DNA of 32,000 nt from Phycisphaera mikurensis NBRC 102666 (GCF_000284115.1 NC_017081.1:1-32000), one strand, 5' to 3'; shown: positions 940-28,166, counted from the stretch's first letter. Numbers and translations are program-made. Notes: a model not told the origin generated them from the sequence alone.

Positions 940-1739
940 GGCTGGTCCTCCCCCAGCAGTTTCGCCGGCACCGAGACCCGCTGCGCCGGCACGTACACCC
1001 CGCCGCCGGCGACCTGCACCTTCCCCGGCCCCGGCCCCAGGCCGGTGAGGTCCAGGTGCCGAAACCACGGGTGCCTGGCCCGCTCCGCGAGCACCAGGAA
1101 CACCCGCACCACCCGCTGCAGCCGGCAGGCCCGCAGCAGCTCCGCGAGCCGCCTTGGGCGGAGGTCAACCAAGCCCTCGATGAGGTGCCGCAGCGTCTCG
1201 GCGTCCACTGCTTCGGGGAAACGGAGCACCGCCTCGAGGATCGCCCGCTCGGCCGACGACACCGCGAGGTCGAAGCCCTCCACCGCGAGCGTCTCCACCC
1301 CCGCCGCGTCTGCGTCGGTCCCGCCCGCGGGCAGGCTGGAACTCCGCACGACCTCCAGGCTCGCCGCCGCATGCAGGCGGCCAAGCCACGCCGGCACCCC
1401 CACACCCGGTGGCCCGAAGAGCGTCACGCCTCCCGCCGCGCCCTCGCCGAGCGTCAGCGTGTGCGTCCGCCCACGGAGCATCAACGCCGCCACCGACCCG
1501 ATGTGCACGGGGAGGTGCAGCTGCCGCTGCAGTACCTGCACCACCCCAGGCCACCGAACCTCCTGCCCCGGCCGCACGAACAGCCCGCGGTCGACGCGCT
1601 CCAGCCACCCGGAGCGGGCATAGTGCTGCTGCAGGTCCGCGGAAATGCCCAGCGACCGCAGGTGGCTCGCCGCCAGCGGCTCTCCGCGGGCCCCAGCCTG
1701 CTGGAGCAGTTGGAGATGGGTTGCTTCTCGCGTAGCCAC
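936..1739 (-). CDS. abiEi: AbiEi-family antitoxin / transcriptional regulator
   Basis: 267-aa ORF with GTG start at 1739. It has an N-terminal wHTH-like segment (LAASHLRSLGISADLQQHYARSGWLERVDRGLF) and the size and position (immediately upstream of and overlapping AbiEii) typical of AbiEi_4-type antitoxins. Confidence 0.7.
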   Translation of the reverse strand: MATREATHLQLLQQAGARGEPLAASHLRSLGISADLQQHYARSGWLERVDRGLFVRPGQEVRWPGVVQVLQRQLHLPVHIGSVAALMLRGRTHTLTLGEGAAGGVTLFGPPGVGVPAWLGRLHAAASLEVVRSSSLPAGGTDADAAGVETLAVEGFDLAVSSAERAILEAVLRFPEAVDAETLRHLIEGLVDLRPRRLAELLRACRLQRVVRVFLVLAERARHPWFRHLDLTGLGPGPGKVQVAGGGVYVPAQRVSVPAKLLGEDQP

Positions 1740-6130: not shown

Positions 6131-7345
6131 TCAGCCGCGGAGGCAAGCGTTGCACTTGCAGGTCCCGGTGGCCGGGTCGTGCATCCACCAGTCGTTGGTC
6201 ATCCGACCGCACAGGAGGCACTTCGCAACGCGTTCCTTCCGCGTCGGCTCGCGCCGCACAGGCGCTGCCGGCGGCGGGGCGGTGAGTCCCACGCGACGCT
6301 GCAACGATGCTCGGCGTGCCGCTTCCATCGCCGCCTCGCGTTTCTGCACCTCCTGCAGGTGCGCCTCGATCTCCACGGCCATCCGCTCCCGCCACGCCCG
6401 GTAGCGGGAGTGCTCGCCGGGGTGGAGCGGGCGACCGTCCGAGGGCCGCATCTCCATCTCCACCAGCGGGTTCACCAAGACGAAGGCGCGGGCGTCTCGC
6501 TCCCACGGCCGGAGCGGCCGCCTGAAGCGCAGCGAGACGACGCTCCAATCAGATGGGTGGCCGCTGGGTTTGTCCACCGACGGGATCAGGTAGCTCGATC
6601 CCGCCCCGGCCGTCCCGCGAGGCGACGCGGGGTCGTCGTACGCGGCCTCCTCTTCGGTGCGCAGGAACAAGGGCTGGGCCTCGACGTGGGGCTCGACCAT
6701 CCAGACCTCCTGCGGGGAGAGCTGAACATTGACCTCTTCGCCGTCGATCAGGGGATCTTCGGGTTCCACGCGGACGCCGTCTCGGAGTGGGCGGAAGCGG
6801 CGGTCGATGCCCATGCGAACAAGCCGGCGGCCGCCACGCTGGAACGCGTCCCAAGCGTCGCGGAGTTCCCAGTCGAGACGCTTCCGTATCAGCAGGTGGT
6901 GGTGGGATCGCCGCCCATCGGGATCTTGCAACCGGACATCGACCGGCAGCGGTCCGGCGGTGGTTTCTACTTCCACGTGCACCTGGTCCCGCCAGCCGGC
7001 AAACTTCCCGCCGGACGCTTTGACCTTGCCCTTAAGCCACCAGCACAGGGCGGTCTGCGCCGCGGCGAGAACGGCGTTGTCCTTTCGTGCGTACCGGCAG
7101 GTCAGTTCTCCGGGCGGGTGGGCGAAGTGGGCGCAGACTCTTCGCCCTCGCTTGAAGCGGAGCGCGACGCCGCACCCCTCGTCTGGGCAGACAATCTCGT
7201 CGGCGGCACACGCTCGACGTAGCTCCAGCTCGACGGGGTCGTGGCCCCGTTCGCCCGGCTCGCCGTGCCCGACCGGCACGCTCTGGGGGTGGATGTCCAC
7301 CGTTTGAACCCGTTCGCCGGTCGAGGCTCGGATGGCGAACAGCAC
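6131..7345 (-). CDS. CoiA-like (competence protein CoiA family) putative nuclease with extended C-terminus and terminal zinc ribbon
   Basis: GTG start at 7345 with GAGGT about 10 nt upstream. The N-terminus (MLFAI...CPDEGCGVALRFKRGRRVCAHFAH) matches the CoiA N-terminal CxxC...HFAH pattern. The C-terminal CLLCG...CKCNAC is zinc-ribbon-like. Confidence 0.55.
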   Translation of the reverse strand: MLFAIRASTGERVQTVDIHPQSVPVGHGEPGERGHDPVELELRRACAADEIVCPDEGCGVALRFKRGRRVCAHFAHPPGELTCRYARKDNAVLAAAQTALCWWLKGKVKASGGKFAGWRDQVHVEVETTAGPLPVDVRLQDPDGRRSHHHLLIRKRLDWELRDAWDAFQRGGRRLVRMGIDRRFRPLRDGVRVEPEDPLIDGEEVNVQLSPQEVWMVEPHVEAQPLFLRTEEEAAYDDPASPRGTAGAGSSYLIPSVDKPSGHPSDWSVVSLRFRRPLRPWERDARAFVLVNPLVEMEMRPSDGRPLHPGEHSRYRAWRERMAVEIEAHLQEVQKREAAMEAARRASLQRRVGLTAPPPAAPVRREPTRKERVAKCLLCGRMTNDWWMHDPATGTCKCNACLRG

Positions 7346-7385
7346 GTCAGACGCTACCTCTTCTTGGTCCGGCTGCCGAACCAGC

Positions 7386-7445
7386 GGGGTGTCGGGGCAG
7401 AGCCCTGACCGCGCGGCGGAGCGTCAGCGACGCCGCGCGCGGCCG
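7386..7445. repeat. Double-hairpin repeat, copy 1 (just after the radC stop)
   Basis: GGGGTGTCGGGGCAGAGCCCTGACCGCGCGGCG...CGCCGCGCGCGGCCG. Hairpin a is GTCGGGGC/GCCCTGAC (one G-T pair on the + strand). Hairpin b is CCGCGCGGCG/CGCCGCGCG(CG)G. It is near-identical to copy 2 at 8936-8994. Confidence 0.6.
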
Positions 7446-7481
7446 CGGAAAGCGGACCGGACCCTGGCCTGCGGTCCCGCC

Positions 7482-8219
7482 TCACCCCGCCGCCCGGATG
7501 CTCACGCTCCCCTGCGAGGCGACGACGATGTGGTCGAGTACCTCCACCCCCAGCGTCCGGCCCGCCGCTTCCAGGCGTCGCGTCACGGCGTGGTCTTCGG
7601 GGCTCGGGCTCGGGTCTCCGCTTGGGTGGTTGTGCACGAGCAGGACCGCCGCGGCCGCGTCTCTGAGCGTCGGCCGGAAGACCTCCCGCGGGTGCACAAG
7701 GCTCGCGTCCAGCGTGCCCACCGTCACCCGGTGCGTGCCGATGACATGGTGCCGCGTGTCCAGCGTGACAACGTGAAACTCCTCCTGCACGCCGTCGGTG
7801 GCGAGGCGTGCGAAGCGACGCCGGCAGAACGCGAGGGCTGACGCGGTGCCGGTGATCGTTGCCTCGGGCGGGGCCTCCGCCGCGGCCGCCACCCGACGGC
7901 CCAGTTCCACCGCGGCGAGCACCCGGCCCAGCGTCCGCCGCTTCAGGCCCGGGACCGCCTCGCCCAGCTCCGCGTCGCCCACCGAGAGCAGCCGCCGCAC
8001 GTCCCCACCGCACAGGCCCATGATCCGCCGGCCGGCCTCCTCGGCGTCGGCCTTGGTCCGTGTGTCCGCGTCCACCACCACGGCCACCAGTTCCGCGTCG
8101 GTCATGCCGGCCGCGCCGTCACGCCGGATGCGCTCACGGGCGACGTCAACGCCCACCGCGGAACGCCGGGGGTAGAGGCCGGCGGAGGGGTTCGGGTGGC
8201 TGGAAGGCTGAAAGGTCAT
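7482..8219 (-). CDS. radC: RadC-like JAB-domain protein
   Basis: ATG at 8219 preceded by GGAG 7 nt upstream. It carries the JAMM/RadC signature VHNHPSGDPSPSPED and helix-hairpin-helix-like N-terminal half. The longer track ORF (to 8324) would run through the conserved upstream hairpin. Confidence 0.9.
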   Translation of the reverse strand: MTFQPSSHPNPSAGLYPRRSAVGVDVARERIRRDGAAGMTDAELVAVVVDADTRTKADAEEAGRRIMGLCGGDVRRLLSVGDAELGEAVPGLKRRTLGRVLAAVELGRRVAAAAEAPPEATITGTASALAFCRRRFARLATDGVQEEFHVVTLDTRHHVIGTHRVTVGTLDASLVHPREVFRPTLRDAAAAVLLVHNHPSGDPSPSPEDHAVTRRLEAAGRTLGVEVLDHIVVASQGSVSIRAAG

Positions 8220-8505
8220 CGCATCGCTCCAAGGGGCACCGCTCGGGCGCCGGGTGTCGGGATGCAGGGGTCGCGCGAATCTCACGCTCTCGGGCCAACA
8301 CGTTTTTGGCCCCTCCCTGCACAAGCAGGGAGGGAGGGGTCAAAACACGCAGCTCTCACCGGGCTGCCGCCCGGAGCGACCGCAGCGCGGGCACGCCATA
8401 ACGGAGGCGAGGAGGGCGGGAGGATCTGATCGCAGCGCAGCGGAGAACTCCACGCGGAGCGAGGAGGCGGGTCAGATCCGAGTGGCCGACGAGCCGACGG
8501 CGGGG
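8220..8505. promoter_or_regulatory. Structured leader element R1 upstream of radC
   Basis: Contains bulged hairpin H1 (8307-8342), the conserved AGCGACCG block, long-range stem GGATCTGA (8422-8429)/TCAGATCC (8472-8479), and distal block CGACGGCGGGG. Paralogous to R2 and R3. Confidence 0.65.
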
Positions 8506-8580
8506 CGTGACGGCGCGGAGGAAGAGGAGGGCGGTGGCCCGGTGCGGCCAGCCGGTCCCCTCGGGGGCCGGCGTTCCTTC
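8490..8580. repeat. About 90-nt repeat at the distal edge of R1 (partner of 14996-15083)
   Basis: CGAGCCGACGGCGGGGCGTGACGGCGCGGAGGAAGAGGAGGGCGGTGGCCCGGTGCGGCCAGCCGG...GGCGTTCCTT aligns by eye, with few mismatches and one small indel, to 14996-15083. Confidence 0.6.
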
Positions 8581-8613
8581 GCCCGCCTGATGGCTCGTTG
8601 CGGCCGCCTGCGG

Positions 8614-8838
8614 CTACGGCCTGTCAAGATAGGGCATCGCTGCCCGCATTGCATCGTGTTCGTGCCCGTAGGCGGGGCGGGCGGTGCCCTCGCGGAGCAG
8701 CTTCCCGATGGTGAGGCGTGGAACGCCCCGGGCCACTCGAACCTTCGCGTCGTCCGGGAAGTCGGTCCGCTCCAGGCTGGCCGCGGCGACGCCGCCGTCG
8801 TCGCTGACCAAGAGGTAGAGGGGTGGGGGGATGCTCAA
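8614..8838 (-). CDS. Small hypothetical protein (74 aa), possibly excisionase/AlpA-like HTH (weak)
   Basis: TTG start, no clear RBS. The sequence is non-shadow-like (LYLLVSDDGGVAAASLERTDFPDDAKVRVARGVPRLTIGKLLREG). The FP..vrv..g..R..l pattern is only loosely HTH_17-like. Confidence 0.3.
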   Translation of the reverse strand: MSIPPPLYLLVSDDGGVAAASLERTDFPDDAKVRVARGVPRLTIGKLLREGTARPAYGHEHDAMRAAMPYLDRP

Positions 8839-8935
8839 GGGACCGCCGGTTTACAACGCGGGGCGTCAATGTGCGTGCGCTTGTGGCTGCGCCGCCTGGC
8901 GTTGAGCCTGCTCAAGCGGACGCCGGGAAGGCAAC

Positions 8936-8994
8936 GGGGTGTCGGGGCAGGGCCCCGACCGCGCGGCGACCCGGAGGGGAGCCGCGCGCGGCCG
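8936..8994. repeat. Double-hairpin repeat, copy 2 (just after the ardC stop)
   Basis: GGGGTGTCGGGGCAGGGCCCCGACCGCGCGGCG...GCCGCGCGCGGCCG. Hairpin a is a perfect GTCGGGGC/GCCCCGAC here. Confidence 0.6.
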
Positions 8995-9049
8995 AGACCC
9001 GGCCACGGCGAAGCGTTCGCACGACCGCTCCAGGCCCCCAGCCCCGGGC

Positions 9050-10030
9050 TCACTCGGGGCCGGTCTTTCGGTCCTCCGCCGCCGGGCGGATCAGGTCAAC
9101 CGCCTTCTGCGCAGCGCCCGCCGCCTTCAGGAAGAAGCCGCTGTCGGTCTGCATCCGGTCCAGCCAGCCAGCGACGTACGCGGCGCTCATCTCCTCGGTG
9201 ACCGGGGCAATCCCGCAGTGAGCACAGAGCAGGGACGCCGCCAGCTCCGCGACCATCTCCTCCTCGGCGTAAGGATCCAGCAGTCCGGAGCCCGCCTCGG
9301 TGATGCCCCTGCGGCCCAGCCGCGACGCGTGCCCGGTGCTGTGCGCGATCTCGTGGAAGAGCGTTGAGAAGTAGGCCTCGGGCGTTTCGTAGCTCGCCAG
9401 CGGCGGCGTCACCACCACGTCGGTGCGGCAGTTGTAGTGCGGGGTGACCTCCATCTCCACGCACCCCGGGGCCCCGGGCGACCGCAGGAAGCCGGTCGCC
9501 ACCTCGGCGCAGGCCCGCAGCTCGGGCGGGCAGGCGTCGGGCTCCAGCGGGACCTCCCCCGGCGCGGCCTCGGTGTCCAGCCCGTCGACGTCCTCGACGT
9601 TGAAGACGTTGTATGTCTTGAGGAAGGCCACCCGCTTCTTCTCCCCGCTGGGGTTCTTCTTGTCCTCCTTCTCCATGAAGTTCCAGAAAACGATGGGCAC
9701 GCTCTTGGATCCGGCCCGCACCTGCCCCCCGGCTTGAGCCGCCTGGCGGTAGGTCATCCACAGCGGCCGGGTGAAGCCGCGCTTCCGCTCGGCGAGCCAG
9801 AGCAGGAAGACGTTCACGCCCCGGTACTTCTTCCCGGTGACGAGGTTGGCCGGCAGGAATCCCGACTCGGTGCCGGTGTGCTGGGGCCGCCACGGGACGG
9901 TTCCCGCCGTCAAGGCCTCCACGATTCGGTCGGTGACCTCTTGGGCGATGTCCCGGCGGGGCTTGGGGGCGTCCTTGCGGGCGGGCTTGCGGGTGCGGGT
10001 GCTGGACGATCGGGAAACGGAAGCGGACAC
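9050..10030 (-). CDS. ardC: ArdC antirestriction protein (N-terminal ssDNA-binding DUF1738 domain plus C-terminal zincin metalloprotease)
   Basis: EVTDRIVEALTAGTVPWRPQ, KKYRGVNVFLLWL, PIVFWNF and LFHEIAHSTGH are characteristic of ArdC. I place the start at GTG 10030, preceded by AGGAG with a 6-nt spacer. The ATG at 10156 would translate through conserved hairpin H1. Confidence 0.9.
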   Translation of the reverse strand: MSASVSRSSSTRTRKPARKDAPKPRRDIAQEVTDRIVEALTAGTVPWRPQHTGTESGFLPANLVTGKKYRGVNVFLLWLAERKRGFTRPLWMTYRQAAQAGGQVRAGSKSVPIVFWNFMEKEDKKNPSGEKKRVAFLKTYNVFNVEDVDGLDTEAAPGEVPLEPDACPPELRACAEVATGFLRSPGAPGCVEMEVTPHYNCRTDVVVTPPLASYETPEAYFSTLFHEIAHSTGHASRLGRRGITEAGSGLLDPYAEEEMVAELAASLLCAHCGIAPVTEEMSAAYVAGWLDRMQTDSGFFLKAAGAAQKAVDLIRPAAEDRKTGPE

Positions 10031-10335
10031 GGCGAACTCCTGGAGCCCACAAGGGGCGGGATGAATCGCAGGGGCTACGCGTGTCGCTGCACGCTCCGGG
10101 CCAAGCCATTGCTTTTGGCCCTCCCTGCGCAGGCAGGGAGGGAGGGCCAACAGCAACCAACACAGGGGGCTCTCCCGGGGCGAAGCGACCGAGAGGCGGG
10201 AACGGCATGACGGAGCGGGACGGGGCCTCTGGGATCTGATCGCCCCAGCCGACGCAGTCGGCTCGGGCGACCGCGAAGCGGCGGGTCAGATCACGAGCCC
10301 CTCGCCCCGCGACGGCGGGACGTTCAGGCCGTCAG
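10031..10335. promoter_or_regulatory. Structured leader element R2 upstream of ardC
   Basis: H1 at 10115-10150 (14 bp with a 4-nt AGGG bulge), AGCGACCG block, stem GATCTGA (10233-10239)/TCAGATC (10286-10292) enclosing the perfect inner hairpin AGCCGAC-gca-GTCGGCT, and distal block CGACGGCGGGACG. Collinear with R1 almost throughout. Confidence 0.65.
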
Positions 10336-10923
10336 GGAGTGCAGCCACGGGTGGGCCCCGGCTTGCCGGCTCCGCCGGCGGACCTCAGAAGGCGGGCGAA
10401 GCCCGCCCCGACGGCTGCCCGGCCGCGCCGGGTGTCCTCTGCTTGCGGCCCGGAAGCGGGAGCAACCGGGACTGGACGCCGCGCGGGGCCCAGAGGGGCC
10501 TCCGGGGGCGGGAAGCCCAGCCGGGAACCGGCTCGGCGGCCTGCGGAAGCAGGGCCCGCCCACGAGTCCCCCGCGCCGCCCCCGTGGCGGACGGCCCGGG
10601 GGCCGAGCGAGCAAACCCGCACCGGAACCCGCCCGGCGGCCACGCCGCCGGTCCGCTCCCCGGCCGGGCGACGGCCGCGGGGCTGGCCGTCCCCGGCGAG
10701 CCCCGCGGCCCCAAGCCGGGCCGCTTCCGCCCCCCAAGATCAACCGCCGCCCGGGCGGCCGGGCGATGTGCCTGCGCAGCGGGGACACGGCCCGGTCGCT
10801 CGGGCTTCCGAGGGCGGGCCACGTTGCCCGCACGCCTCCGGTGGGCGCTCCTCCGTGCCACTCCAGTCAAGACCCATCCGGAACCACCAGGCGGGATCCC
10901 GCCACCCCGCCCGGCCGCTGTCG
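10336..10923. other. About 590-bp extremely GC-rich region without a credible ORF
   Basis: All overlapping track ORFs on both strands are Arg/Pro/Gly/Ala shadows. The region is dense in short GC hairpins (GGCGGGC-gaa-GCCCGCC, AGCCGG-gaa-CCGGCT, palindrome GGCGGGATCCCGCC). Confidence 0.5.
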
Positions 10924-11196
10924 TCAGTACTCGTCCGGGAACAGGATCGTCGTTGAGCTGCGGTCCGCTTCGGTGATGACGTAAACCTCGCCGTGGGGGG
11001 TGTCGAAGCGGCTGAGGACGCGGCCCCCGTGCTTCACCGCGAGGCGGTTGGCCTCGGCGTCATTGGGGCACAGAAGTCCAATGTCCCCCCGGAGGTGTCG
11101 CCGGAGGAGCCCGGCGAGATCTCTGATGGTGAAGATCTGCACCACACTGACGGTGGCGACAGTGCGGCCGAGCGGGAAGGCGCGGGTGGGGTTCAT
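10924..11196 (-). CDS. Small conserved plasmid/ICE-associated protein (90 aa), function unknown
   Basis: ATG at 11196. The pattern LGRTVAT...RRHLRGDIG...NDAEANRLAVKHGGRVLSRF...VYVITEADRSSTTILFPDEY matches, from memory, a small protein family recurrent on plasmids/ICEs that ends in ITEADRSxTT(I/V)LxPxEY. Confidence 0.7.
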   Translation of the reverse strand: MNPTRAFPLGRTVATVSVVQIFTIRDLAGLLRRHLRGDIGLLCPNDAEANRLAVKHGGRVLSRFDTPHGEVYVITEADRSSTTILFPDEY

Positions 11197-11203
11197 GGTC
11201 TGG

Positions 11204-11246
11204 GGTCTTCGGGTGGGGTGGGTGAGGAACACCCACGCGGAAGACC
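11204..11246. promoter_or_regulatory. Two-tier hairpin abutting the start of the 90-aa gene
   Basis: Outer stem GGTCTTC (11204-11210)/GAAGACC (11240-11246), inner stem GTGGGTG (11218-11224)/CACCCAC (11230-11236), loop AGGAA. Located 8 nt from ATG 11196. Confidence 0.45.
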
Positions 11247-11338
11247 GCCCCGCGGGAGCGGGGCGATCGACCTCGGCGGAACGAAGAGAAACCGCGTGCC
11301 GGTGCCGCCGGCAGCGGATCCGGCCTGGGGCGGTGGGG

Positions 11339-11596
11339 TCAGTCCCCGCCGCCGGCTTCTTCTTGAGCCTCGTGGATCCAGTCGAAGGCCAGCGAGGCGA
11401 CCTTCTCGAGGATGGGCAGGTCCTGCAGCCCGAAGCTGGTGGAGTCCTTCCACTCCCCGTCGACCTGGTAGCCGCGGGAGAAGGTGGCTTGGTGCCGGAC
11501 GCCGCTCTGAGTCTCGTTGGCCCAGATGGCCGCCTTGATGGTGCCCACGCGGACGGTGTGGGCGGGACGGGTGGTGTTGCTGTGGTGCTTCGCCAT
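11339..11596 (-). CDS. Small conserved plasmid/ICE-associated protein (85 aa), function unknown (possibly a small ssDNA-binding fold)
   Basis: ATG at 11596 with AGGAA about 9 nt upstream. VRVGTIKAAIWANETQSGVRHQATFSRGYQVDGEWKDSTSFGLQDLPILEKVASLAFDWI resembles, from memory, a recurrent small mobile-element family (IKAxIWxN...R.Y..dgeWk.S.sF). The fold guess is inference only. Confidence 0.7.
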   Translation of the reverse strand: MAKHHSNTTRPAHTVRVGTIKAAIWANETQSGVRHQATFSRGYQVDGEWKDSTSFGLQDLPILEKVASLAFDWIHEAQEEAGGGD

Positions 11597-11850
11597 GAGA
11601 GGGTTTCCTTTCGGAGGGGGGTGAGGGGGTCCGTACGCAAGAACGGCGGGCCCCCTCACCCCCCGGGAGGAAACCGCCGGCGGGTCCGCCGCGGGCGAGA
11701 CCGGCGCAGCGACCGGAGGCGGGAGCGGCGTGCCGGAGGCGAGGGTGTGCCGGGAATCTGATCGCCCCCAGTCATGGGGAGCGACCCGAGCGCAGAGAGG
11801 GCGGGTCCGATTCCGGGTGCTCCCGCAGCCGACGGCGGGACGCTCAGGCC
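11597..11850. promoter_or_regulatory. Structured leader element R3 upstream of the 85-aa gene
   Basis: 14-bp perfect GC hairpin GGGGGGTGAGGGGG (11616-11629)/CCCCCTCACCCCCC (11651-11664). Shares with R1/R2 the AGCGACCGGAGGCGGGA block, stem GGAATC (11753-11758)/GATTCC (11809-11814), and distal CGACGGCGGGACGCTCAGGCC. Confidence 0.6.
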
Positions 11851-12269
11851 GGATGGGAAGCGCAGCGGGCTCGACCGTGGAGGCCACGCCGGCACAGGCG
11901 AAGCACGACGTCGCCCCCGCACGTCCTGCCACATCCTCGTGGTGCTCTCTCACCCGGCCGGCTCGTGCAACGCGACCCGGCGGTCGACTTCAAAACGCTC
12001 TCGCGTGGTGACGTGACGGGGGCAAAGGCTCCGCCCGCTCGCGCTCCTCACCGCCCATCCAGAAGATGGCCCGGCCTTCACGATCCACGCGTCGTGGGCT
12101 TTGACGGTGGGGCGGTCCTGCAGGCCGCACGGCCGGGGTTGCAGTTGGTGGCCTTTGCCCGGCGCCCCTCTCCATCGGGTGGTCGATCGTCCCGCTCTCG
12201 CGGGGCGGCGCAGCCTCTTCTTCGCCCATCCCGCTCGGAGCAGCCGGGTCAGATTCAACCCGCGTCGAC

Positions 12270-12511
12270 CGATCATTCGTCCGCCACCTTGTTGTTTCGA
12301 GAGCGACCCTCCACGAAGTTTGCTGGTCGCCGCGCTCGGGTTCGTGCCCATGTCGATCGCCACCGTCAGCGGAGCCGAGGTGCAGAAGTCGCTGGCCGCC
12401 GTCGTCATCGGCGGGGCCGTCAGCACCACCCTGCTGATGCTGGTCGTGCTTCCGGCGATCTGCCGGATCTGGCTTCCGATCGACCCAAGGGTTCCGCGGG
12501 GACCCAGTTGA
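12270..12511 (+). pseudogene. Truncated 3' remnant of a CzcA/CusA-family RND efflux pump gene
   Basis: The C-terminal part of track ORF 12101..12511 reads AALGFVPMSIATVSGAEVQKSLAAVVIGGAVSTTLLMLVVLPAICRIW, the conserved last TM region of heavy-metal RND pumps. No upstream pump sequence is present, and homology fades near 12270-12320. Confidence 0.7.
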
Positions 12512-12536
12512 GCGACCGCGAGCCAACGATGAGGCA

Positions 12537-14258
12537 ATGCCACGGCTCCAGCACCTCTCCAGCGGCGACCGCAACTGCCGGTTCATGCCCGTCGACCGGC
12601 GGGTGCCTTTCCGACTCAGTGCGTTCTGGCGGCACCTCGACGACCTCGGGCTGACCCATCCAGACCGGCTGGATCCGGAGCGTCTGATCCGGCGTGGTTG
12701 GCTCCGCCCTCTGTTCACCCTCTCCGCGGAGAAGGCTGGCTCTGAGGACGCCCCCAGCCGGGTCGATCTCTGGCTCGGCACCCGCCTCGGCGACCGCTTC
12801 GACTCCTTTGCAGGCGACTGGTGGTCGGCTGACCTGGACCGGGTCGAAGACCCCGACACCGACGCGATCCTGGCGGCCGGCCGGGAGCCGACCGCCCCCC
12901 AAGCGGGCGAAGAAGACGATTGGCACGCGGACCGGATCGAGGTCTACCGGTACCACCAGGCCTTCCTGGTTGCCGATTTGCAGGAGCGCTGCACGTCCCG
13001 GAGCGACCCCCTCGCGTGCGATCTCGACGGGGCGCACGCGGCGCTGCAAAGCAACCAGCAGCGTCAAGCCCGCGAAGCCGCTGCCGTTCGAAAGCAGTGG
13101 GCAGACATCGCACCCGTCCTCGACCGCGTCTCGCTCTGGCGGACCGCCGTGAGCACCCACGCATTCCCGGGCCTGACGCCGGCGGACGGATCCGACGCCT
13201 GGGTCTGGGCCGACGCGGAAGCCGACCTGCTCGCTCGCGACGCCGAGACCGGCGCGGCGTGGGAGGAGGACATCCGCGCCGCGTACCTGACGACCTGGGA
13301 GCGGTGGCGGAGGATGCTCCCCGGGGGGCCGCTCGCCTCCCCCAAGCTCGTCGGCCTGTTCCGCCAGGACGTGCAGCACGCGATCGCGGCTGCAGAGACC
13401 ACCACCGGGCAAAGCGTCGACTTCCTCGACGAAACTTGGGACTACGGGCGCCCCTGGCACGCGGACGCGAGCAGGGGTCGCCGCTCCTGGGCGAGGCTGC
13501 TGGAGGTGCTGCCCTTCGAAGAAGACGTCGCGATGGTGGAGTTTCCCGTGCGGGCCCGCATCTACCTCCGCGGCCTCCAGCACATGGCGTGTCGAACGCT
13601 CGACGAGACCGACCTCTTCCAGGCCGTCTCGCCGGTCCGGCACCGGCCACTCGTCAACCGCATCCTCCTGAGCTTCCGCCGCACGCACGAGGACCTCGAT
13701 GTGAGTCTCAGCAGCGACCCGAGAGCCGTCCTCCCAGCGAAGGAGCGGATCACCAGCATCCACCAGACCCTCCTTGACCTCGAGAAGGCGCTCATCGCCT
13801 GGAGCATCCGGGTCACGAACCCGGCGAAGGAGCCAGACCTCAGAAAGTGCATGAAGCAACTGCTCGGATTCATGCTGGACCAGCAGGGCTGGTCTGGTGG
13901 GGAGATCGCCACCCGGAAGGGACAGCTCGAGAAGCTCTGCGAGGGACGCAGTGGGAGCAAGGCGCACATCACAGGCGAGCTTCCGCTCATCGACATGGCC
14001 GATGTTCCGCAGGCGCCGCCGGCGTTGCAGGAGTTCTTCATCGCCGCGGTCAACTTCCTCGTGGGCCGGAACCACGCCGCGCACAGCTCCAGCGTCGATC
14101 GATCCATCATCTATGTGCAAAAGGACGAGGAGCGGGACGAGCACGTCGGCGGGCGGATCCTCACCGGCGCTCTCGTGGTGTTCATGGAGCTGACGGCCGC
14201 CCTCGCTGAGGAGGCGGGAACGGCTGCTACCGGCACCGGTGGTGAAGCCTGCTCCTGA
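12537..14258 (+). CDS. Hypothetical 573-aa protein with C-terminal HEPN-like RNxxAH motif
   Basis: Long ATG ORF of diverse composition that starts 25 nt after the RND remnant stop. About 60 residues from the C-terminus, FLVGRNHAAHSS fits the Rx4-6H (RNxxAH) HEPN signature in a helical context. No other domain recognised. Confidence 0.7.
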   Translation: MPRLQHLSSGDRNCRFMPVDRRVPFRLSAFWRHLDDLGLTHPDRLDPERLIRRGWLRPLFTLSAEKAGSEDAPSRVDLWLGTRLGDRFDSFAGDWWSADLDRVEDPDTDAILAAGREPTAPQAGEEDDWHADRIEVYRYHQAFLVADLQERCTSRSDPLACDLDGAHAALQSNQQRQAREAAAVRKQWADIAPVLDRVSLWRTAVSTHAFPGLTPADGSDAWVWADAEADLLARDAETGAAWEEDIRAAYLTTWERWRRMLPGGPLASPKLVGLFRQDVQHAIAAAETTTGQSVDFLDETWDYGRPWHADASRGRRSWARLLEVLPFEEDVAMVEFPVRARIYLRGLQHMACRTLDETDLFQAVSPVRHRPLVNRILLSFRRTHEDLDVSLSSDPRAVLPAKERITSIHQTLLDLEKALIAWSIRVTNPAKEPDLRKCMKQLLGFMLDQQGWSGGEIATRKGQLEKLCEGRSGSKAHITGELPLIDMADVPQAPPALQEFFIAAVNFLVGRNHAAHSSSVDRSIIYVQKDEERDEHVGGRILTGALVVFMELTAALAEEAGTAATGTGGEACS

Positions 14259-14738: not shown

Positions 14739-14995
14739 GGCCTGAGCCCCTCGCACCGGGCCGAAGCCCGGCGCGTCGAGACACCTTCATCGTCCGGACC
14801 GCACGACATCCTCTGAATTTGCTTCTTGGCTTCACGGGCGACCTTGGGATCCGAGCGGCGGCATCGAGCTTGATCGCCACCGATCTGCCCGGCTGCGCGG
14901 GGAGGCCGTACGTCGACACCGTCGACCTGAAGATGGAGGTCCGGGCGGAAGCACGAGCGGCCCGAGCCGCTCCCGACGGAGCGGCGAGCAACAGA

Positions 14996-15083
14996 CGAGC
15001 CGACGGCGAGGCATGACGGCGCGCCAGAAGAGAAGGGCGGTGGACCGGTGCAGCCAGCCGGACCCCGGAGGCGGCGTTCCTTT
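14996..15083. repeat. Partial (distal-half only) copy of the R1-type element
   Basis: CGAGCCGACGGCGAGGCATGACGGCGCGCCAGAAGAGAAGGGCGGTGGACCGGTGCAGCCAGCCGGACCCCGGAGGCGGCGTTCCTT aligns to 8490-8580. The H1 hairpin and GATCTGA stem are absent. Confidence 0.55.
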
Positions 15084-17251: not shown

Positions 17252-18187
17252 TCAGAAGCTCAGCCGCACGCCTGCGACCACTTCGAAGCGGTCGGCGGAG
17301 CCGCCCTCGGCCGCGATGATGTCGGCGGTGTTGCCGCTGGCGAAGCTGTAGCGGAGTCCTGCGTAGGGCGCCACCTCCCGGCGGGACTCGTAACGCAGAC
17401 GCAGCCCGAGGCTGGTGTTGGAGAGACCGGCACCCAGCCCGCGCTCGCGGTTGTCCTGCGCCTCCAGCCGCACCTCCGCCCGCGGCTGAAGCACAAGACG
17501 CTGGGTGATCCGCACGTCATAGGACGTCGTCAGCCGGAAGGAGACATCGGCGTCCTCGGAGAGAAACGCGCTGGCGTCGACCTCGAAGAGCCCGGGCGCA
17601 AGCCCCTGCACCGCGAGGGCGAGCGAGTACGTGTCGTCGTACACGCCGGGTGCCCAGGCGTTGGCGTACTGAAGCCCGGCCTGCGCGGACCAGAACGGCG
17701 TGACCAGGTAGGAGTACAGCACGTCGGTCTCGCTCTCGCCCTCGTCGGGACCTTCGAAGCCAGCCCCGCCCTCGGCCTTGACCACCAGCTTGTGGTAGTC
17801 GCCGCCGACCCAGTAGAGCGCGTCCCAGCCGAGCGTGTCGGGGCCGCCGTCGTCGATCCGCCACTCGAGTTGCTCGACGAGGAGCAGGTCGTAGATCTGG
17901 CTGTCCATCACCGGGAGGTGGTACTCGGTGGGCGGGTCGCCCGCGGCGGCGTCGAGTACCTCGTCAAGGGTCAGGCCTGTAGGCAGCGGCGGGTCGAGCC
18001 ACTCGCCGGCGGTGGCCGGTGCGGGCGGGGACGTGGTCTCCGCCGATGGCGCCCCGGGCGTCTCTAACATCGGCATGCTCATCGTGTGCTCCGGCTCGGG
18101 TTGTGCCCGAAGAACGGGCGCCAGGAGAAGGAGCAGCGCCGCGGCGAGGGCGTGACGCGCGGTGAAGCGGGGATCAGGACTTCGCAT
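17252..18187 (-). CDS. copB: Copper resistance protein B (CopB/PcoB outer-membrane protein)
   Basis: Signal peptide, Met-rich N-terminus (HTMSMPMLE), and the LEWRIDDGGPDTLGWDALYWVGGDYHKLVVKAEGG core typical of CopB. The start overlaps the copA stop by 14 nt. Confidence 0.85.
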   Translation of the reverse strand: MRSPDPRFTARHALAAALLLLLAPVLRAQPEPEHTMSMPMLETPGAPSAETTSPPAPATAGEWLDPPLPTGLTLDEVLDAAAGDPPTEYHLPVMDSQIYDLLLVEQLEWRIDDGGPDTLGWDALYWVGGDYHKLVVKAEGGAGFEGPDEGESETDVLYSYLVTPFWSAQAGLQYANAWAPGVYDDTYSLALAVQGLAPGLFEVDASAFLSEDADVSFRLTTSYDVRITQRLVLQPRAEVRLEAQDNRERGLGAGLSNTSLGLRLRYESRREVAPYAGLRYSFASGNTADIIAAEGGSADRFEVVAGVRLSF

Positions 18188-20045
18188 CTTGCGCCTCCCC
18201 TTCCAGGCTGCGGACGACGGCGACGGTGCGGAACATGCCGACCTCCATGTGGTAGAGCAGGTGGCAGTGGAAGGCCCAGTGGCCCGGGGCGTCGGCGGTT
18301 ACGTCGATGCTGAGCAGCTCGGCGGGCTGCACGATCGTGGTGTGCTTCCGCGGGATCTTGTCGTAGGGCTGGCCGTTGTGCAGGTCGCTCCACATCCCAT
18401 GCAGGTGCATGGGGTGAGGCATCATCGTGTCGTTCACGTAGTTGATGCGGAGCCGCTCCCCGTAGACGAAGCGGATCATCTCGCTCTGGGACCACTTCTT
18501 CCCGTCGATGCCCCAGATGTACCGGCCCATGTTGCCGGTGAGGTGCAGCGTCATCTCCCGCGTGGGCGGCCGCCGGTCGGCGGGGGTTTCCACGCACCGC
18601 AGGTCGGCGTAGGTGAGCACCCGCCAGCCATCGGAGCCCAGCCCGGTGCCCGGTTCGGCGGAGCGGCGGTAGGCGACCATCGCGACCGTCGAGTTCCCGG
18701 CCCCGTGCTCGTCGGGCCCGTGCATCACTTCGTCCGGGAGGTTCTCGACCGGGAGCGTGCCCCCGCCCCCGCCCCCGCCCCCGGGCATCTCCATCCCGCT
18801 CATGTCGCCGCCCCCGCCCCCGGGCATGTCCATCCCCGCCATGCCTCCGGGCCCGTCCATGCCCTTCATGCCCATGTCCGCCATGGTCAGCATGGCCCGC
18901 TCCCGCCGCGCGGGCAGCGGCCCAGCCCGGCCGGGGTCGGTGCCAATCGTCGCCCGGGCGAAGCCGCTGCGGTCGGCGCTCTCGCAGAAGAGCGTGAGCG
19001 GCCCCGCGCCCGCCGAGGCCGGGGGCACGGTGAAGAGCACGTCATAGGTCTCGGCCACGCCGATGCGGAACTCGGATACCTCCACCGGCTCGACGCCGTG
19101 GCCGTCGGCCCCGACGACCGTGAGCGGGAGCGGAAGCAGCGCACCGTCCGCGGACCCGACCACCCGGACGTCGAAAAAGGTCATCGCCGAGGCATTCGCC
19201 ACCCGCAGCCGGACCCGCTGGCCAGGCCGCACCCGGAGGAAGCCCCCGTCGTCGGGTCCGCGTCCGTTGACCAGGTACGTGTAGATCGAGCCGGTGACGT
19301 CGGCGAGGTCCGTGGGGTCCATCCGCATCTTCTGGAAGGACCAGCGGACCCCGAGCACCTCCGGGATCGACCGATCCTCGCGGCGGGCCTGGTTGCTCAG
19401 GTTCGCCAGCGTCGGCTTCTGGAAGTTGTAGTACCCCTCCTTGGTCTTGAGGTTGTCGAGCACGCGGTGGGGGTCTTCGAAGGTCCAGTCCGAGAGAACG
19501 ACAGGGTGCTCCACGTCGGCGGGCTCCGAGGCGTCCGGCCCCTCGGGCTCGACGACGATCATCCCGTAGTGGCCCACCTGCTCCTGCAGCTCGGTGTGGC
19601 TGTGGTACCAGTAGGTCCCGGCCTGGCGGACCGGGAAGCGGACCTCGAAGGTCGTGCCCGGGTCGATCCCCGCGTAGCTGATGCCCGGCACGCCGTCCAT
19701 CGTGTAGGGGACGATGAGCCCGTGCCAGTGGACCGAGGTCAATTCCTCCAGCCCGTTGTGAACCCGGATGAGCGCCTCGGCCCCCTGCTTCATGCGGACG
19801 ATGGGCCCGGGAACGGCCCCGTTGAGCGAGATCGCTTCGGTCTGGGCGCCGGCGATCCTCAGGTGTTGCCGCGCGACGTAAAGGTCCGCCCCGCCGGGGG
19901 CGGAGGCGTCGATGGAGGGCAGCGCCGCGGAGGGTCGTGGAGCCGGAGCGGCGAAGAGCCGCGAGGGCGCGAAAGCCGCGACGCCGGCGAGGCCGACCGC
20001 GGATGTCACGAAGCGGCGGCGGCCGATGGGTGGGGGTTGAAGCAT
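18174..20045 (-). CDS. copA: Multicopper oxidase CopA/PcoA (Tat-exported)
   Basis: ATG at 20045 with twin-arginine signal IGRRRFVTSAVGLAG. Copper-binding motifs HWHG, YHSH, HPMHLHG and HCHLLYHMEVGM, plus a Met/Gly-rich insert (MADMGMKGMDGPGGMAGMDMPGG...). The 1266-aa track ORF is an artefactual upstream extension. Confidence 0.9.
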   Translation of the reverse strand: MLQPPPIGRRRFVTSAVGLAGVAAFAPSRLFAAPAPRPSAALPSIDASAPGGADLYVARQHLRIAGAQTEAISLNGAVPGPIVRMKQGAEALIRVHNGLEELTSVHWHGLIVPYTMDGVPGISYAGIDPGTTFEVRFPVRQAGTYWYHSHTELQEQVGHYGMIVVEPEGPDASEPADVEHPVVLSDWTFEDPHRVLDNLKTKEGYYNFQKPTLANLSNQARREDRSIPEVLGVRWSFQKMRMDPTDLADVTGSIYTYLVNGRGPDDGGFLRVRPGQRVRLRVANASAMTFFDVRVVGSADGALLPLPLTVVGADGHGVEPVEVSEFRIGVAETYDVLFTVPPASAGAGPLTLFCESADRSGFARATIGTDPGRAGPLPARRERAMLTMADMGMKGMDGPGGMAGMDMPGGGGGDMSGMEMPGGGGGGGGTLPVENLPDEVMHGPDEHGAGNSTVAMVAYRRSAEPGTGLGSDGWRVLTYADLRCVETPADRRPPTREMTLHLTGNMGRYIWGIDGKKWSQSEMIRFVYGERLRINYVNDTMMPHPMHLHGMWSDLHNGQPYDKIPRKHTTIVQPAELLSIDVTADAPGHWAFHCHLLYHMEVGMFRTVAVVRSLEGEAQDAKS

Positions 20046-20065
20046 CGCTGTTTTCAGGTGAAGGG

Positions 20066-27975: not shown

Positions 27976-27988
27976 GAGGTTCCTGTTT

Positions 27989-28050
27989 GAGGGAGCAAGA
28001 GGGGACGCACACACCGTGTGCCACACCCCGTGCGGGAGAGGGAGCAAGAG
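27989..28050. promoter_or_regulatory. 13-nt direct repeat GAGGGAGCAAGAG (x2) flanking palindrome GCACAC-acc-GTGTGC upstream of the YHS/TRASH gene
   Basis: Read directly: repeats at 27989-28001 and 28038-28050, palindrome at 28007-28021. The whole lies 14-75 nt upstream of ATG 27975. Confidence 0.35.
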
Positions 28051-28166
28051 CGGCGCGGAGGAGCGACGCGCCCGACGCCGCGGGGGCGAGGGCACGCGGC
28101 CACCGCGCTGGCAGGCCTCACCGAAACCCGCGGACGTGCGCGGACTCCGGGGAGGGGCAGGTTTTT

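What the first reader, a model, noticed from the sequence alone, without database searches (positions are those of the whole stretch)
8220..11850. Three paralogous, covarying 250-300 nt structured elements precede radC, ardC and a small ORF: candidate single-strand (Frpo-like) promoters or a radC-type leader motif
R1 (8220-8505), R2 (10031-10335) and R3 (11597-11850) fill the space directly upstream of three co-oriented minus-strand genes and are collinear.

Module order, moving away from each gene:
- a strong GC hairpin (H1)
- the block AGCGACCG-N-GGCGGGA
- a long-range stem GGATCTGA...TCAGATCC
- a distal block CGACGGCGGG

The helices are supported by compensatory changes:
- In H1, pair G8308:C8341 (R1) becomes T10116:A10149 (R2).
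- In H1, pair C8310:G8339 (R1) becomes G10118:C10147 (R2).
- Both H1 copies keep the same 4-nt AGGG bulge.
- In the long-range stem, R3 carries GGAATC/GATTCC where R1 and R2 have GGATC/GATCC, a paired insertion.

The non-Watson-Crick pairs I can see are G-T on the + strand: G8309-T8340, T8430-G8471, and G-T in the 7386-7445 hairpin. On the mRNA-sense (-) strand these would be C-A mismatches. That favours folding of the + strand, which is the template for these genes.

This geometry is what is known for the F-plasmid Frpo and ColIb ssi single-strand promoters. Those drive early expression of leading-region genes (ssb, psiB, ardA) from the incoming T-strand. The alternative is an RNA leader analogous to the Rfam radC motif, which is also found upstream of radC, antirestriction and other DNA-related genes.

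The elements are G-tract-rich on the + strand and each carries several GATC sites. I could not identify convincing -35/-10 boxes by eye.
Basis: partly seen in the sequence, partly recalled or inferred. Interest (0 to 1): 0.85.

Follow-up and report, generated by a model that had tools for sequence, protein, structure and literature searches.

The report
Structured DNA elements before plasmid establishment genes
Three related 300-350-base folded elements sit directly in front of the radC, ardC and a small gene on a Phycisphaera mikurensis conjugative plasmid; the folding signal lies on the template DNA strand, as in the single-stranded-DNA promoters that switch on plasmid genes just after transfer, which would be the first such case outside the well-studied bacteria.

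Summary
R1, R2 and R3 are collinear paralogs, each about 345, 345 and 300 nt. They belong to a family of 20 distinct copies found here and on related metagenomic contigs. Every copy lies directly upstream of, and is co-oriented with, a gene (ardC, radC, an 84-aa ORF or another small ORF).

The fold is supported by covariation. It has a long-range closing helix (P0), a variable stem (P1), GATCTGA/TCAGATC (P2), two apical hairpins (Pa, Pb) and a gene-proximal hairpin (H1).

Four tests favour the template (+) strand:
- A·C-in-sense mismatches outnumber G·T 25 to 8.
- GNA triloops number 18 versus 2.
- H1 is continuous only on the + strand.
- The + strand is more stable in 20 of 20 copies.

Known Frpo/ssi promoters give the same signature in two of these tests, the stability and mismatch ones.

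The window is an 81-kb conjugative plasmid, and the genes point the same way as its relaxase gene.

The element matches no Rfam family, including radC and STAXI. It has no similarity to Frpo and no canonical -35/-10.

Best reading: single-stranded-DNA promoters working like Frpo, at about 0.5. RNA leader, antisense RNA and priming-site readings remain open.

The parts
8220..8580 (+). Element R1, upstream of radC. Coordinates run on the + (template) strand, from the gene start outward.
   Evidence: nhmmer E 1.6e-48. Covariance model 82.8 bits.
10037..10380 (+). Element R2, upstream of ardC.
   Evidence: nhmmer E 1.9e-58. Covariance model 104.6 bits. Orthologous copies lie upstream of ardC in L084, L109, L110 and L112.
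11597..11893 (+). Element R3, upstream of the 85-aa ORF. It has a different, longer H1.
   Evidence: nhmmer E 4.2e-35. Covariance model 95.6 bits. Orthologs are in L084, L111, L112, L116 and L117.
8303..8345 (+). H1 hairpin of R1. It contains the G8309·T8340 wobble and a 4-nt purine bulge. The R2 equivalent is 10112-10153.
   Evidence: The bulge is conserved across the R1/R2-type copies.
11602..11675 (+). H1 of R3. It forms a helix of about 33 bp that is near-continuous only on the + strand and ends 5 nt from the ATG, covering the complement of the ribosome-binding site.
   Evidence: with RNA parameters the energy is -61.7 (template) against -52.1 (sense). The template strand is more stable in all 6 R3-type copies with both RNA and DNA parameters.
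8373..8406 (+). Conserved boxes B6 and B5 (GGAGCGACCG...GGGCACGCCATAACGGAG). The R2 equivalent is 10182-10215 and the R3 equivalent is 11706-11738. They contain the weak -35-like ATGACG/ATGCCG.
8423..8478 (+). P2 helix (8423-8431 with 8470-8478), which encloses the apical hairpins Pb and Pa. In R2 the arms are 10233-10241 and 10284-10292. In R3 they are 11755-11763 and 11804-11812.
   Evidence: Covariation occurs at three P2 positions. Pa and Pb vary in length and sequence but stay paired.
8495..8513 (+). Distal conserved box B1 (CGACGGCGGGGCGTGACGG). The R2 equivalent is 10310-10328 and the R3 equivalent is 11830-11848.
8352..8548 (+). Long-range helix P0 of R1 (8352-8372 pairs with 8529-8548), which closes the core domain. 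In R3 it is 11676-11707 with 11862-11893.
   Evidence: A helix of 16-34 aligned positions (14-25 Watson-Crick pairs) is found in all 20 copies, with differing sequences. Cognate arms score 27.3 against 19.3 for non-cognate arms.
8552..8580 (+). H0, a GC hairpin followed by GTTCCTTC at the distal end. The R2 equivalent is 10361-10380.
14985..15066 (+). Truncated fourth copy, holding only the distal part (B1, P0 arm and H0 region). No minus-strand gene is attached to it.
   Evidence: 84% identity to 8479-8560.
7482..8219 (-). radC (JAB/MPN domain), the gene served by R1.
   Evidence: Pfam RadC E 5.3e-39. 100% identical to a P. mikurensis protein.
9050..10036 (-). ardC (ArdC-N plus zincin peptidase), the gene served by R2.
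   Evidence: Pfam. 100% identical to P. mikurensis ArdC.
11339..11596 (-). 85-aa ORF served by R3, of unknown function.
   Evidence: 16 homologs. AlphaFold pLDDT 86, with four strands and a helix. No PDB or Pfam match.

Best explanation
R1-R3 belong to a new family of elements, about 300-430 nt long, carried by conjugative plasmids and integrative elements of Phycisphaerae (Planctomycetota).

The functional form is the single-stranded + strand of the window, which is the template strand of the downstream genes and is inferred to be the transferred T-strand.

**Proposed mechanism.**
1. The strand enters a recipient cell and folds into a closed multi-helix domain (P0, P1, P2, Pa, Pb) plus a gene-proximal hairpin H1.
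2. The folded DNA recruits RNA polymerase.
3. radC, ardC and the small ORFs are transcribed from the incoming strand before the complementary strand is made.
4. The promoter disappears once the DNA is double-stranded.

The same RNA could also prime complementary-strand synthesis, as Frpo does.

**Shown:** the family, its fixed position and orientation, covariation, and the template-strand folding signature shared with real Frpo/ssi.

**Inferred:** that the + strand is the transferred strand, that RNA polymerase is what binds, and where transcription starts.
For: **Family and position.** There are 20 distinct copies. All lie immediately upstream of and are co-oriented with a gene, and each is orthologous with its gene type.

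**Covariation.**
- Core: 57 double-change cells against 23 in shuffles, with 0 of 500 shuffles reaching the observed value.
- P2 covaries at 3 positions.
- P0 is present in 20 of 20 copies.

**Strand signature.**
- 1x1 mismatches inside Watson-Crick-only folds: A·C in the sense strand 25, G·T 8. Shuffles give 8.1 and 6.9.
- GNA triloops, including d(GCGAAGC) and d(GCGCAGC): 18 on the template strand against 2 on the sense strand, of 55 triloops. The window background is about 4-7% per strand.
- H1 of the six R3-type copies is near-continuous only on the template strand. The sense strand has up to 7 A·C mismatches.
- With DNA parameters the template strand is more stable in 20 of 20 copies. Mean z-score is -4.96 against -3.53.

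**Positive control.** ColIb Frpo1-3, F ssiD and two Frpo' candidates were put through the same tests.
- The T-strand is more stable in 6 of 6.
- G·T on the T-strand occurs 7 times and A·C 0 times.
- The sequences are 326-400 nt, similar in length to the elements here.
- Several paralogous copies occur on one plasmid (three Frpo on ColIb-P9; sequence list).

**Context.**
- The window is an 81-kb plasmid with an RlxS-like relaxase and a TraF peptidase. The genes are co-oriented with the relaxase gene, 14-17 kb upstream of it.
- T4SS genes lie next to the copies in L084, and umuDC-like genes lie in L116.
- A chromosomal radC homolog (69% identity) has no element.
Against: - No canonical -35/-10 occurs on either strand. 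On the template strand there is only a weak ATGACG/ATGCCG, 16-18 nt, nnGRAT, and the key A at position 2 is present in only 5 of 18 copies.
- The nick site and the transferred strand are unknown. In the pLS20 family, similar upstream elements lie on the non-template strand relative to the T-strand.
- Heavy use of G·T pairs in H1 would suit an RNA at least as well as DNA.
- In the variable core helices, G·T and A·C are balanced, 10 against 8. The asymmetry therefore rests on H1, P0 and a few conserved positions that are shared by descent among orthologs.
- One copy (L111, upstream of ardC) lacks the whole P1-P2-Pa-Pb core.
Confidence: 0.5

Rival explanations
1. The element is a sense-strand 5'-UTR leader RNA, a cis-regulatory RNA analogous to the Rfam radC motif. 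It is transcribed with the gene, folds in the mRNA, and controls translation or stability. In the R3-type copies, H1 would sequester the ribosome-binding site.
For: - The position is fixed just upstream of start codons.
- The H1 3' arm can pair alternatively with a conserved downstream TTGGCC repeat. That pairing covaries in L116b and L117b, which looks like a switch.
- The radC motif has the same gene associations.
- All Watson-Crick helices exist equally in the sense RNA.
Against: - All four strand tests favour the opposite strand.
- The sense version of H1 in L116c and L117c carries 7 A·C mismatches.
- There are almost no G·U pairs in the variable helices, and no GNRA or UUCG tetraloops.
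- Rfam gives no match.
- No promoter-like site is seen upstream.
Confidence: 0.15
2. The + strand is transcribed into a structured cis-antisense RNA. It covers the 5' UTR and ribosome-binding site of each gene and represses it, in the manner of FinP or Sok but much larger.
For: - The + strand is the folding strand.
- The abundant G·T pairs would be ordinary G·U pairs in RNA.
- The distal hairpin H0 is followed by GTTCCTTC on the + strand, a weak terminator-like end.
Against: - No conserved promoter is seen at the gene-start side.
- The hairpin tips are DNA-type GNA triloops rather than RNA-type tetraloops.
- A closed multi-helix domain of 300-400 nt is unlike known kissing-loop antisense RNAs (my knowledge).
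- The model would need a separate antisense gene for every establishment gene.
Confidence: 0.12
3. The element acts as single-stranded DNA on the transferred strand, but as a priming signal for complementary-strand synthesis (ssi or sso type) or as a protein landing pad, not as a promoter for the adjacent gene.
For: - It shares the template-strand folding evidence above.
- Frpo also makes primer RNA (citing Masai and Arai 1997).
- GNA minihairpins are typical of single-strand origins (my knowledge).
Against: - The tight positional coupling to start codons, and orthology of each element type with its gene, are not needed for priming.
- Three copies within 3.7 kb would be redundant for priming.
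Confidence: 0.13
4. The element is a double-stranded regulatory region, like the CUP repeats of pKM101 or the repressor-controlled establishment promoters of p576. It would hold an ordinary promoter plus operators, and the inverted repeats would be protein-binding palindromes.
For: - Conserved regions longer than 400 bp upstream of establishment genes are known in pKM101.
- GGCGGG occurs three times and GCGACC twice per element.
Against: - Arms that covary while changing sequence, hairpins of variable length, and a helix whose arms lie about 170 nt apart are not properties of operators.
- Strand asymmetry has no meaning for duplex DNA.
Confidence: 0.08

Closest known systems
Frpo / ssi single-stranded DNA promoters of F and ColIb-P9
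   Same: - Similar length, about 330 nt.
- A multi-hairpin fold on the template (transferred) strand, with one end abutting the gene start.
- Several paralogous copies on one plasmid, each upstream of a leading-region gene such as an anti-restriction gene.
- The same strand signature in my tests.
- d(GCGAAGC)/d(GCGAAAGC)-type hairpin tips.
   Different: - No sequence similarity.
- No canonical TTGACA/TATAAT or A+T-rich UP element.
- 71-79% G+C.
- A long-range closing helix and a three-way apical junction instead of one long promoter-mimicking stem.
- Found in Planctomycetota rather than Enterobacteria.
- Activity and the identity of the transferred strand are untested.
EGeRS1 establishment-gene regulatory sequences of the pLS20 plasmid family (Bacillus)
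   Same: - Conserved regions of 400-600 bp with multiple inverted repeats and complex predicted folds.
- They precede ardC and several other establishment operons.
- No strong ordinary promoter.
- Mechanism unknown.
   Different: - No sequence similarity to anything in PLSDB.
- In pLS20 the transferred strand is the non-template strand, so the authors rejected a single-stranded-DNA promoter.
- Here the folding strand is the template strand.
Rfam radC RNA motif (RF01754) and STAXI motif (RF01728)
   Same: Both are structured motifs in the apparent 5' UTRs of radC, anti-restriction, integrase and other DNA-handling genes. A single-stranded-DNA role was considered for STAXI.
   Different: - No covariance-model match even at E<=10.
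- Those motifs are Proteobacterial and were judged to be RNA, partly from tetraloops.
- Here the opposite strand folds better and the tips are GNA triloops.
CUP (conserved upstream) repeats of IncN plasmid pKM101
   Same: Conserved sequences of more than 400 bp precede each of seven establishment transcription units in the leading region.
   Different: CUP is thought to act as duplex DNA bound by ArdK and ArdR. No covariation or strand asymmetry has been reported for it. It was not compared by sequence here.

Membership tests
Frpo/ssi single-stranded DNA promoters | Stable imperfect multi-hairpin fold specific to the template (transferred) strand | tested here: met
   The template strand is more stable in 20 of 20 copies, with a lower mean z-score. 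The mismatch asymmetry is 25 against 8. The same result is obtained for known Frpo/ssi.
Frpo/ssi single-stranded DNA promoters | Located directly upstream of, and co-oriented with, leading-region or establishment genes, often in several copies | tested here: met
   All 20 copies meet this. The genes include ardC and radC.
Frpo/ssi single-stranded DNA promoters | Canonical sigma-70 -35 and -10 hexamers (and a UP element) displayed in a stem | tested here: not met
   The consensus scan finds none. Only a weak ATGACG-N16-18-nnGRAT is present.
Frpo/ssi single-stranded DNA promoters | Sequence homology to known Frpo/ssi | tested here: not met
   nhmmer and blastn against ColIb Frpo1 and Frpo2 and F ssiD and ssiE give no hit.
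Frpo/ssi single-stranded DNA promoters | The folding strand is the transferred strand | tested here: inconclusive
   The genes are co-oriented with the relaxase gene 14-17 kb downstream. This fits the usual arrangement in which the relaxase enters last. However, the nick site was not found, and pLS20 shows that exceptions exist.
Frpo/ssi single-stranded DNA promoters | Transcription by RNA polymerase that depends on single-stranded DNA | not testable with these tools
   Needs in vitro transcription or mating experiments.
Rfam radC RNA motif (RF01754) | Match to the family covariance model | tested here: not met
   cmscan gives no match at the gathering threshold or at E<=10 over 7300-12100.
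Rfam radC RNA motif (RF01754) | Fold on the mRNA-sense strand | tested here: not met
   The sense strand folds less well by every test.
EGeRS1 (pLS20 family) | Sequence similarity to EGeRS1 regions | tested here: not met
   No blastn match of R2, or of 8000-12000, in 72,556 plasmids.
EGeRS1 (pLS20 family) | Long conserved multi-inverted-repeat region upstream of ardC and other establishment operons | tested here: met
   compared with the published description.
Integron attC sites | A site of 57-141 nt with R''/R' core sites that follows each cassette gene, with an integrase nearby | tested here: not met
   - The elements are 300-430 nt long.
- They keep a fixed distance to the downstream start codon but a variable distance to the upstream gene.
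- Only GAACG/CGTTC pairs, not RYYYAAC/GTTRRRY.
- No integrase is present in the window.

The most novel reading that the evidence does not exclude
These are the first single-stranded-DNA promoters known outside Proteobacteria. They use a different architecture: a closed multi-helix DNA fold with GNA minihairpins and conserved GGCGGG boxes, and no sigma-70 hexamers. Recognition would then be by something other than promoter mimicry, such as a different sigma factor, a transferred plasmid protein, or a primase-like polymerase. The fold would mark leading regions and unknown anti-defence genes in Planctomycetota.
Probability: 0.3. Interest if true: 0.85.

Novelty: new variant of a known kind. Interest (0 to 1): 0.7.

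Why it matters
How incoming plasmids express anti-defence and establishment genes before their DNA is double-stranded is understood only for a few enterobacterial plasmids. For the pLS20 family the equivalent upstream elements remain unexplained.

This finding offers three things:
- A sequence family, supported by covariation, from a distant phylum. It carries the same template-strand folding signature as real single-stranded promoters but lacks the canonical promoter boxes. It therefore tests whether promoter mimicry is the only solution.
- A strand test that treats both strands alike (A·C against G·T inside Watson-Crick-only folds, plus GNA triloops). It is validated here on Frpo and can be applied to other unexplained upstream repeats.
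- A marker for establishment genes. The unknown small ORFs behind the elements become candidate anti-defence genes.

Tried and rejected
- **Rfam.** Both the gathering-threshold scan and the E<=10 scan gave only chance miRNA-like hairpin hits.
- **Single-sequence folding.** Folding R1-R3 on both strands was inconclusive, as was alifold on three sequences.
- **ArdC-based scan of 185,579 genomes.** Relatives were at most 42% identical. nhmmer found no element in any of those loci. The covariance model was run on 11 of them and found none.
- **H1 pattern scan of metagenome and viral contigs.** It returned 24 loci, all unrelated hairpins.
- **PLSDB plasmids.** No match in near or distant mode.
- **Sigma-70 scans.** Nothing canonical.
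- **IncP-type nick consensus YATCCTGY.** Absent from the plasmid segment.
- **Leader-peptide idea.** A GTG in the H0 loop runs to the TGA in CCTGAAC in 3-4 copies, but it is not conserved, so I rejected it.
- **attC and Rhodopirellula-1 motif.** A different architecture.
- **Chromosomal P. mikurensis radC.** Not on record. Another chromosomal-type radC locus was used instead.
- **G·T against A·C in the MAFFT-aligned core helices.** Balanced at 10 against 8, so the core alone does not decide the strand.

Full report
**What is in the window**

The window has 70.7% G+C. ArdC, RadC and the 85-aa protein are each 100% identical to Phycisphaera mikurensis proteins, all carried on an 81,240-bp contig.

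On the minus strand lie three genes:
- radC, 7482-8219
- ardC, 9050-10036
- an 85-aa ORF, 11339-11596

The three elements R1, R2 and R3 fill the space upstream of these genes. They align collinearly with 70% mean column identity. The motif ATCTGATCGC occurs only in them. A truncated fourth copy, holding only the gene-distal part, lies at 14985-15066 and is 84% identical to 8479-8560.

**Building a family**

The genome scan with ArdC found relatives of at most 42% identity, and no element was found in those loci (nhmmer on all; covariance model on 11 of them). Closer relatives of ArdC, RadC and the small ORF exist only in metagenome assemblies. I fetched their contigs and searched them with an HMM made from the copies.

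This gave 20 distinct copies:
- 3 in the window
- 4 in L084
- 1 each in L109 and L110
- 2 each in L111 and L112
- 3 in L116
- 4 in L117

Several properties hold across the family:
- Every copy is immediately upstream of a gene and has the same orientation as that gene. The genes are ardC, radC, the 84-aa 'MAK...' ORF, or other small ORFs without Pfam matches.
- The element upstream of ardC in other contigs resembles R2, the one upstream of radC resembles R1, and the one upstream of the small ORF resembles R3. The elements have therefore evolved together with their genes and are not recent insertions.
- A covariance model of the core finds only these copies.
- A chromosomal-type radC (69% identity, among housekeeping genes) has no element.
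- No plasmid in PLSDB has anything similar.

**Anatomy**

The features below are listed in mRNA sense, moving towards the gene.

| Feature | Description |
|---|---|
| Far-upstream box | Optional; present in 7 copies, none of them in the window |
| H0 | GC hairpin in the context GAAGGAAC-GCCGGC...GCCGGC-TGGCT |
| P0, 5' arm | One arm of the long-range closing helix |
| B0 and B1 | Conserved boxes (GCTGCGCTCCC, CCTGAACGTCCCGCCGTCG) |
| P1 | Variable stem |
| P2 | GATCTGA/TCAGATC |
| Pa and Pb | Two apical hairpins that vary in length and sequence but stay paired |
| P1 (return strand) | Second strand of P1 |
| B5 and B6 | Conserved boxes (CTCCGTCATGCCGTTCCCGCC, GGTCGCT) |
| P0, 3' arm | Second arm of the closing helix |
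| T-rich linker | Joins the core to H1 |
| H1 | Gene-proximal hairpin |
| Ribosome-binding site | Follows H1 |

The elements therefore reach about 8580, 10380 and 11893.

**Evidence for structure**

- P2 covaries at three positions. The first pair is G-C in 10 copies and A-T in 9. The fifth is T-A in 13 and C-G in 3. The sixth is G-C, but C-G in L110.
- On the 19-sequence core alignment, 85.6% of cells are paired against 77.3% in shuffles. There are 57 cells with changes on both sides against 23. None of 500 shuffles reached the observed value, and sliding the partners by 1-3 columns destroys the signal.
- P0 exists in all 20 copies as a helix of 16-34 aligned positions (14-25 Watson-Crick pairs) with differing sequence. 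Cognate arms score 27.3 on average against 19.3 for non-cognate arms.
- One natural variant (L111, upstream of ardC) lacks the whole P1-P2-Pa-Pb core but keeps B1/B5, P0 and H1.

**Which strand folds**

Helices made only of Watson-Crick pairs are the same on both strands, so I used tests that treat the strands equally.

1. *Mismatch types.* In folds computed with G·U forbidden, single mismatches enclosed by pairs are A·C (read on the sense strand) 25 times and G·T 8 times. Dinucleotide shuffles give 8.1 and 6.9, and no shuffle set exceeded 11 A·C. An A·C on the sense strand is a G·T wobble on the + strand.
2. *Triloops.* Of 55 triloops on stems of at least 4 bp, 18 are GNA on the + strand and 2 are GNA on the sense strand. 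Most of the 18 are GCA or GAA in the contexts GCGCAGC and GCGAAGC. In the rest of the window, GNA triloops make up about 4-7% per strand. To my knowledge, d(GCGNAGC) hairpins are unusually stable in DNA (work of Hirao and Yoshizawa in the 1990s; not read here). Neither strand has GNRA or UUCG tetraloops.
3. *H1 of the R3-type copies.* On the + strand this is a near-continuous helix of about 33 bp. The sense strand carries up to 7 A·C mismatches. The + strand is more stable in 6 of 6 copies with both RNA and DNA parameters.
4. *Whole elements, DNA parameters.* The + strand is more stable in 20 of 20 copies. After correcting for composition, its z-score is lower in 14 of 20, with means of -4.96 against -3.53.
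5. *P2 extension.* P2 is extended on the + strand by a conserved T·G and then a C-G pair in 18 of 19 copies.

Coding regions of the same strand show no purine skew, whereas the elements do. A general mutational bias is therefore unlikely to explain the asymmetry.

There are two caveats. In the variable core helices, G·T and A·C are balanced at 10 against 8. Many of the asymmetric positions are also shared by orthologs, so the number of independent events is smaller, roughly 14 against 8 by my count.

**Positive control**

I took the known Frpo/ssi sequences from the supplement of Samuel et al. 2024 and ran the same tests.
- They are 326-400 nt long and are listed in template-strand orientation, starting at the gene start.
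- The T-strand is more stable in 6 of 6, by 10-17 kcal/mol, and has the lower z-score in 6 of 6.
- The enclosed mismatches are G·T on the T-strand 7 times and A·C 0 times.
- ColIb Frpo1-3 begin with GCGAAGC or GCGAAAGC hairpins.

The Phycisphaera elements thus share the size, the copy number, the position and the strand signature of real single-stranded promoters. They share no sequence with them.

**Plasmid context**

The contig continues beyond the left edge of the window (L124). It carries ParA, an iteron-like AT-richer region, a 501-aa protein, a TraF-type peptidase and an RlxS/MobP-like relaxase.

The relaxase gene is preceded by a 200-bp AT-rich region with a perfect 12-bp inverted repeat, which is a candidate oriT. 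ardC and radC point the same way as the relaxase gene and lie 14-17 kb upstream of it.

If the relaxase gene enters last, as in F, RP4 and R388 (my knowledge), then the transferred strand is the template for all these genes, the region is the leading region, and the + strand of the window is the T-strand. This is an inference: the IncP nick consensus is absent, and pLS20 shows the opposite arrangement. T4SS genes lie next to the copies in L084, and umuDC-like genes lie in L116.

**Promoter boxes**

No canonical sigma-70 promoter is found on either strand.

On the + strand, the conserved box CATGAC/CATGCC is followed after 16-18 nt by nnGAT or nnAAT at the P1/P2 junction. Examples are ATGACG-N17-GAGGAT and ATGACA-N19-GAATCT. 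This has the right geometry for a promoter displayed in a stem, but the key A at position 2 is present in only 5 of 18 copies. I treat it as a lead, not as evidence.

A start near the H1 loop would give an mRNA with a free ribosome-binding site. A start at P2 would leave H1 in the 5' UTR. The data do not decide between these.

**Comparison with known systems**

- *Frpo/ssi.* The element works like these but is not a member: the hexamers and the homology were both tested and not met.
- *EGeRS1 of the pLS20 family.* This is the closest in description: 400-600 bp, multiple inverted repeats, upstream of ardC and other establishment operons, mechanism unknown. There the T-strand is the non-template strand.
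- *CUP repeats of pKM101.* Another analogue.
- *Rfam radC and STAXI motifs.* They have the same gene associations but do not match.

**Verdict**

The structured, covarying, gene-linked family is established. Folding of the template strand is well supported (I put it near 0.75-0.8). The reading as single-stranded-DNA promoters of establishment genes is the best explanation at about 0.5.

The alternatives, with my estimates, are:
- a priming or other single-stranded-DNA role, 0.13
- a sense leader RNA, 0.15
- an antisense RNA, 0.12
- a purely duplex regulatory region, 0.08

This is a new variant of a known kind, in a phylum where nothing of the sort has been described.

Noticed in passing
window 7386-7445 and 8935-8995: A second repeat family. 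Two adjacent GC hairpins (GGGGTGTCGGGGCAGRGCCCYGAC and CCGCGCGGCG...CGCCGCGCGCGG) lie just 3' of radC and of ardC, with 79% identity overall. The copy after radC has a G·T on the + strand (A·C in the sense strand), and the + strand has the better z-score for both copies (-2.4 and -1.9 against -0.5 and -0.8). They may be terminators or further + strand structures.
   Followed up: partly
window 14985-15066: A truncated fourth copy of the element, holding only the gene-distal part. It is 84% identical to 8479-8560 and has no minus-strand gene attached. The neighbouring genes are on the + strand, which suggests a rearrangement breakpoint.
   Followed up: partly
L111 1030-1241: A natural deletion variant upstream of an ardC homolog. 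Boxes B1 and B5 are joined directly, and the whole P1-P2-Pa-Pb core is missing. P0, H1 and the ribosome-binding-site region are intact.
   Followed up: partly
window 11339-11596 (and homologs P0121-P0136): The 85-aa ORF behind R3 forms a small family of 16 clusters. It is predicted with pLDDT 86 to fold as four beta-strands plus a C-terminal helix. It has no Pfam, NCBIfam or PDB match. In every fetched locus that holds the element family, its homolog follows an R3-type element; the 51%-identity homolog in L118-L123 does not.
   Followed up: partly
L081, L082, L083 position 1: Three independent Logan contigs carrying an ardC homolog all end inside the H1 hairpin of the upstream element. This suggests that the repeated or palindromic element breaks assemblies, so the family may be under-sampled.
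   Followed up: no
window 10391-10407: A perfect GGCGGGC-GAA-GCCCGCC hairpin, of the d(GCGAAGC) type on the + strand, lies just beyond the distal end of R2. It sits inside a non-coding stretch of about 540 nt (10381-10923) of unexplained function.
   Followed up: no
L124 14660-15500 and 18566-18767: These lie on the same plasmid, left of the window. Next to parA is an AT-richer region with repeated GTCCCC/ACATGT-type motifs, which looks like iterons of an oriV. Directly upstream of the relaxase gene is a 200-bp AT-rich region with a perfect 12-bp inverted repeat (CATTTCGTCGCC/GGCGACGAAATC), which is a candidate oriT.
   Followed up: partly
L084 9190-9300 and 15130-15230; also L109, L111, L117: A further conserved box (CGCCTGCGCGGCGAGCGRCCGGTGCGTTCCGCCCCGGCACCCC) lies distal to H0 in 7 copies. 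It is not present in the three window copies, so the fullest elements reach about 430 nt.
   Followed up: partly
window 12280-12512: Read by eye, the + strand here looks like the C-terminal end of an RND-type transporter with no upstream part. It may be a gene fragment next to the 573-aa ORF of unknown function (12537-14258).
   Followed up: no
window 1-1739 and 17252-28239: Cargo of the plasmid: an AbiEi/AbiEii toxin-antitoxin pair at the left end, and copper/metal resistance genes (CopB, an RND pump, a CusB-like fusion protein, a YHS-domain protein) on the right.
   Followed up: no
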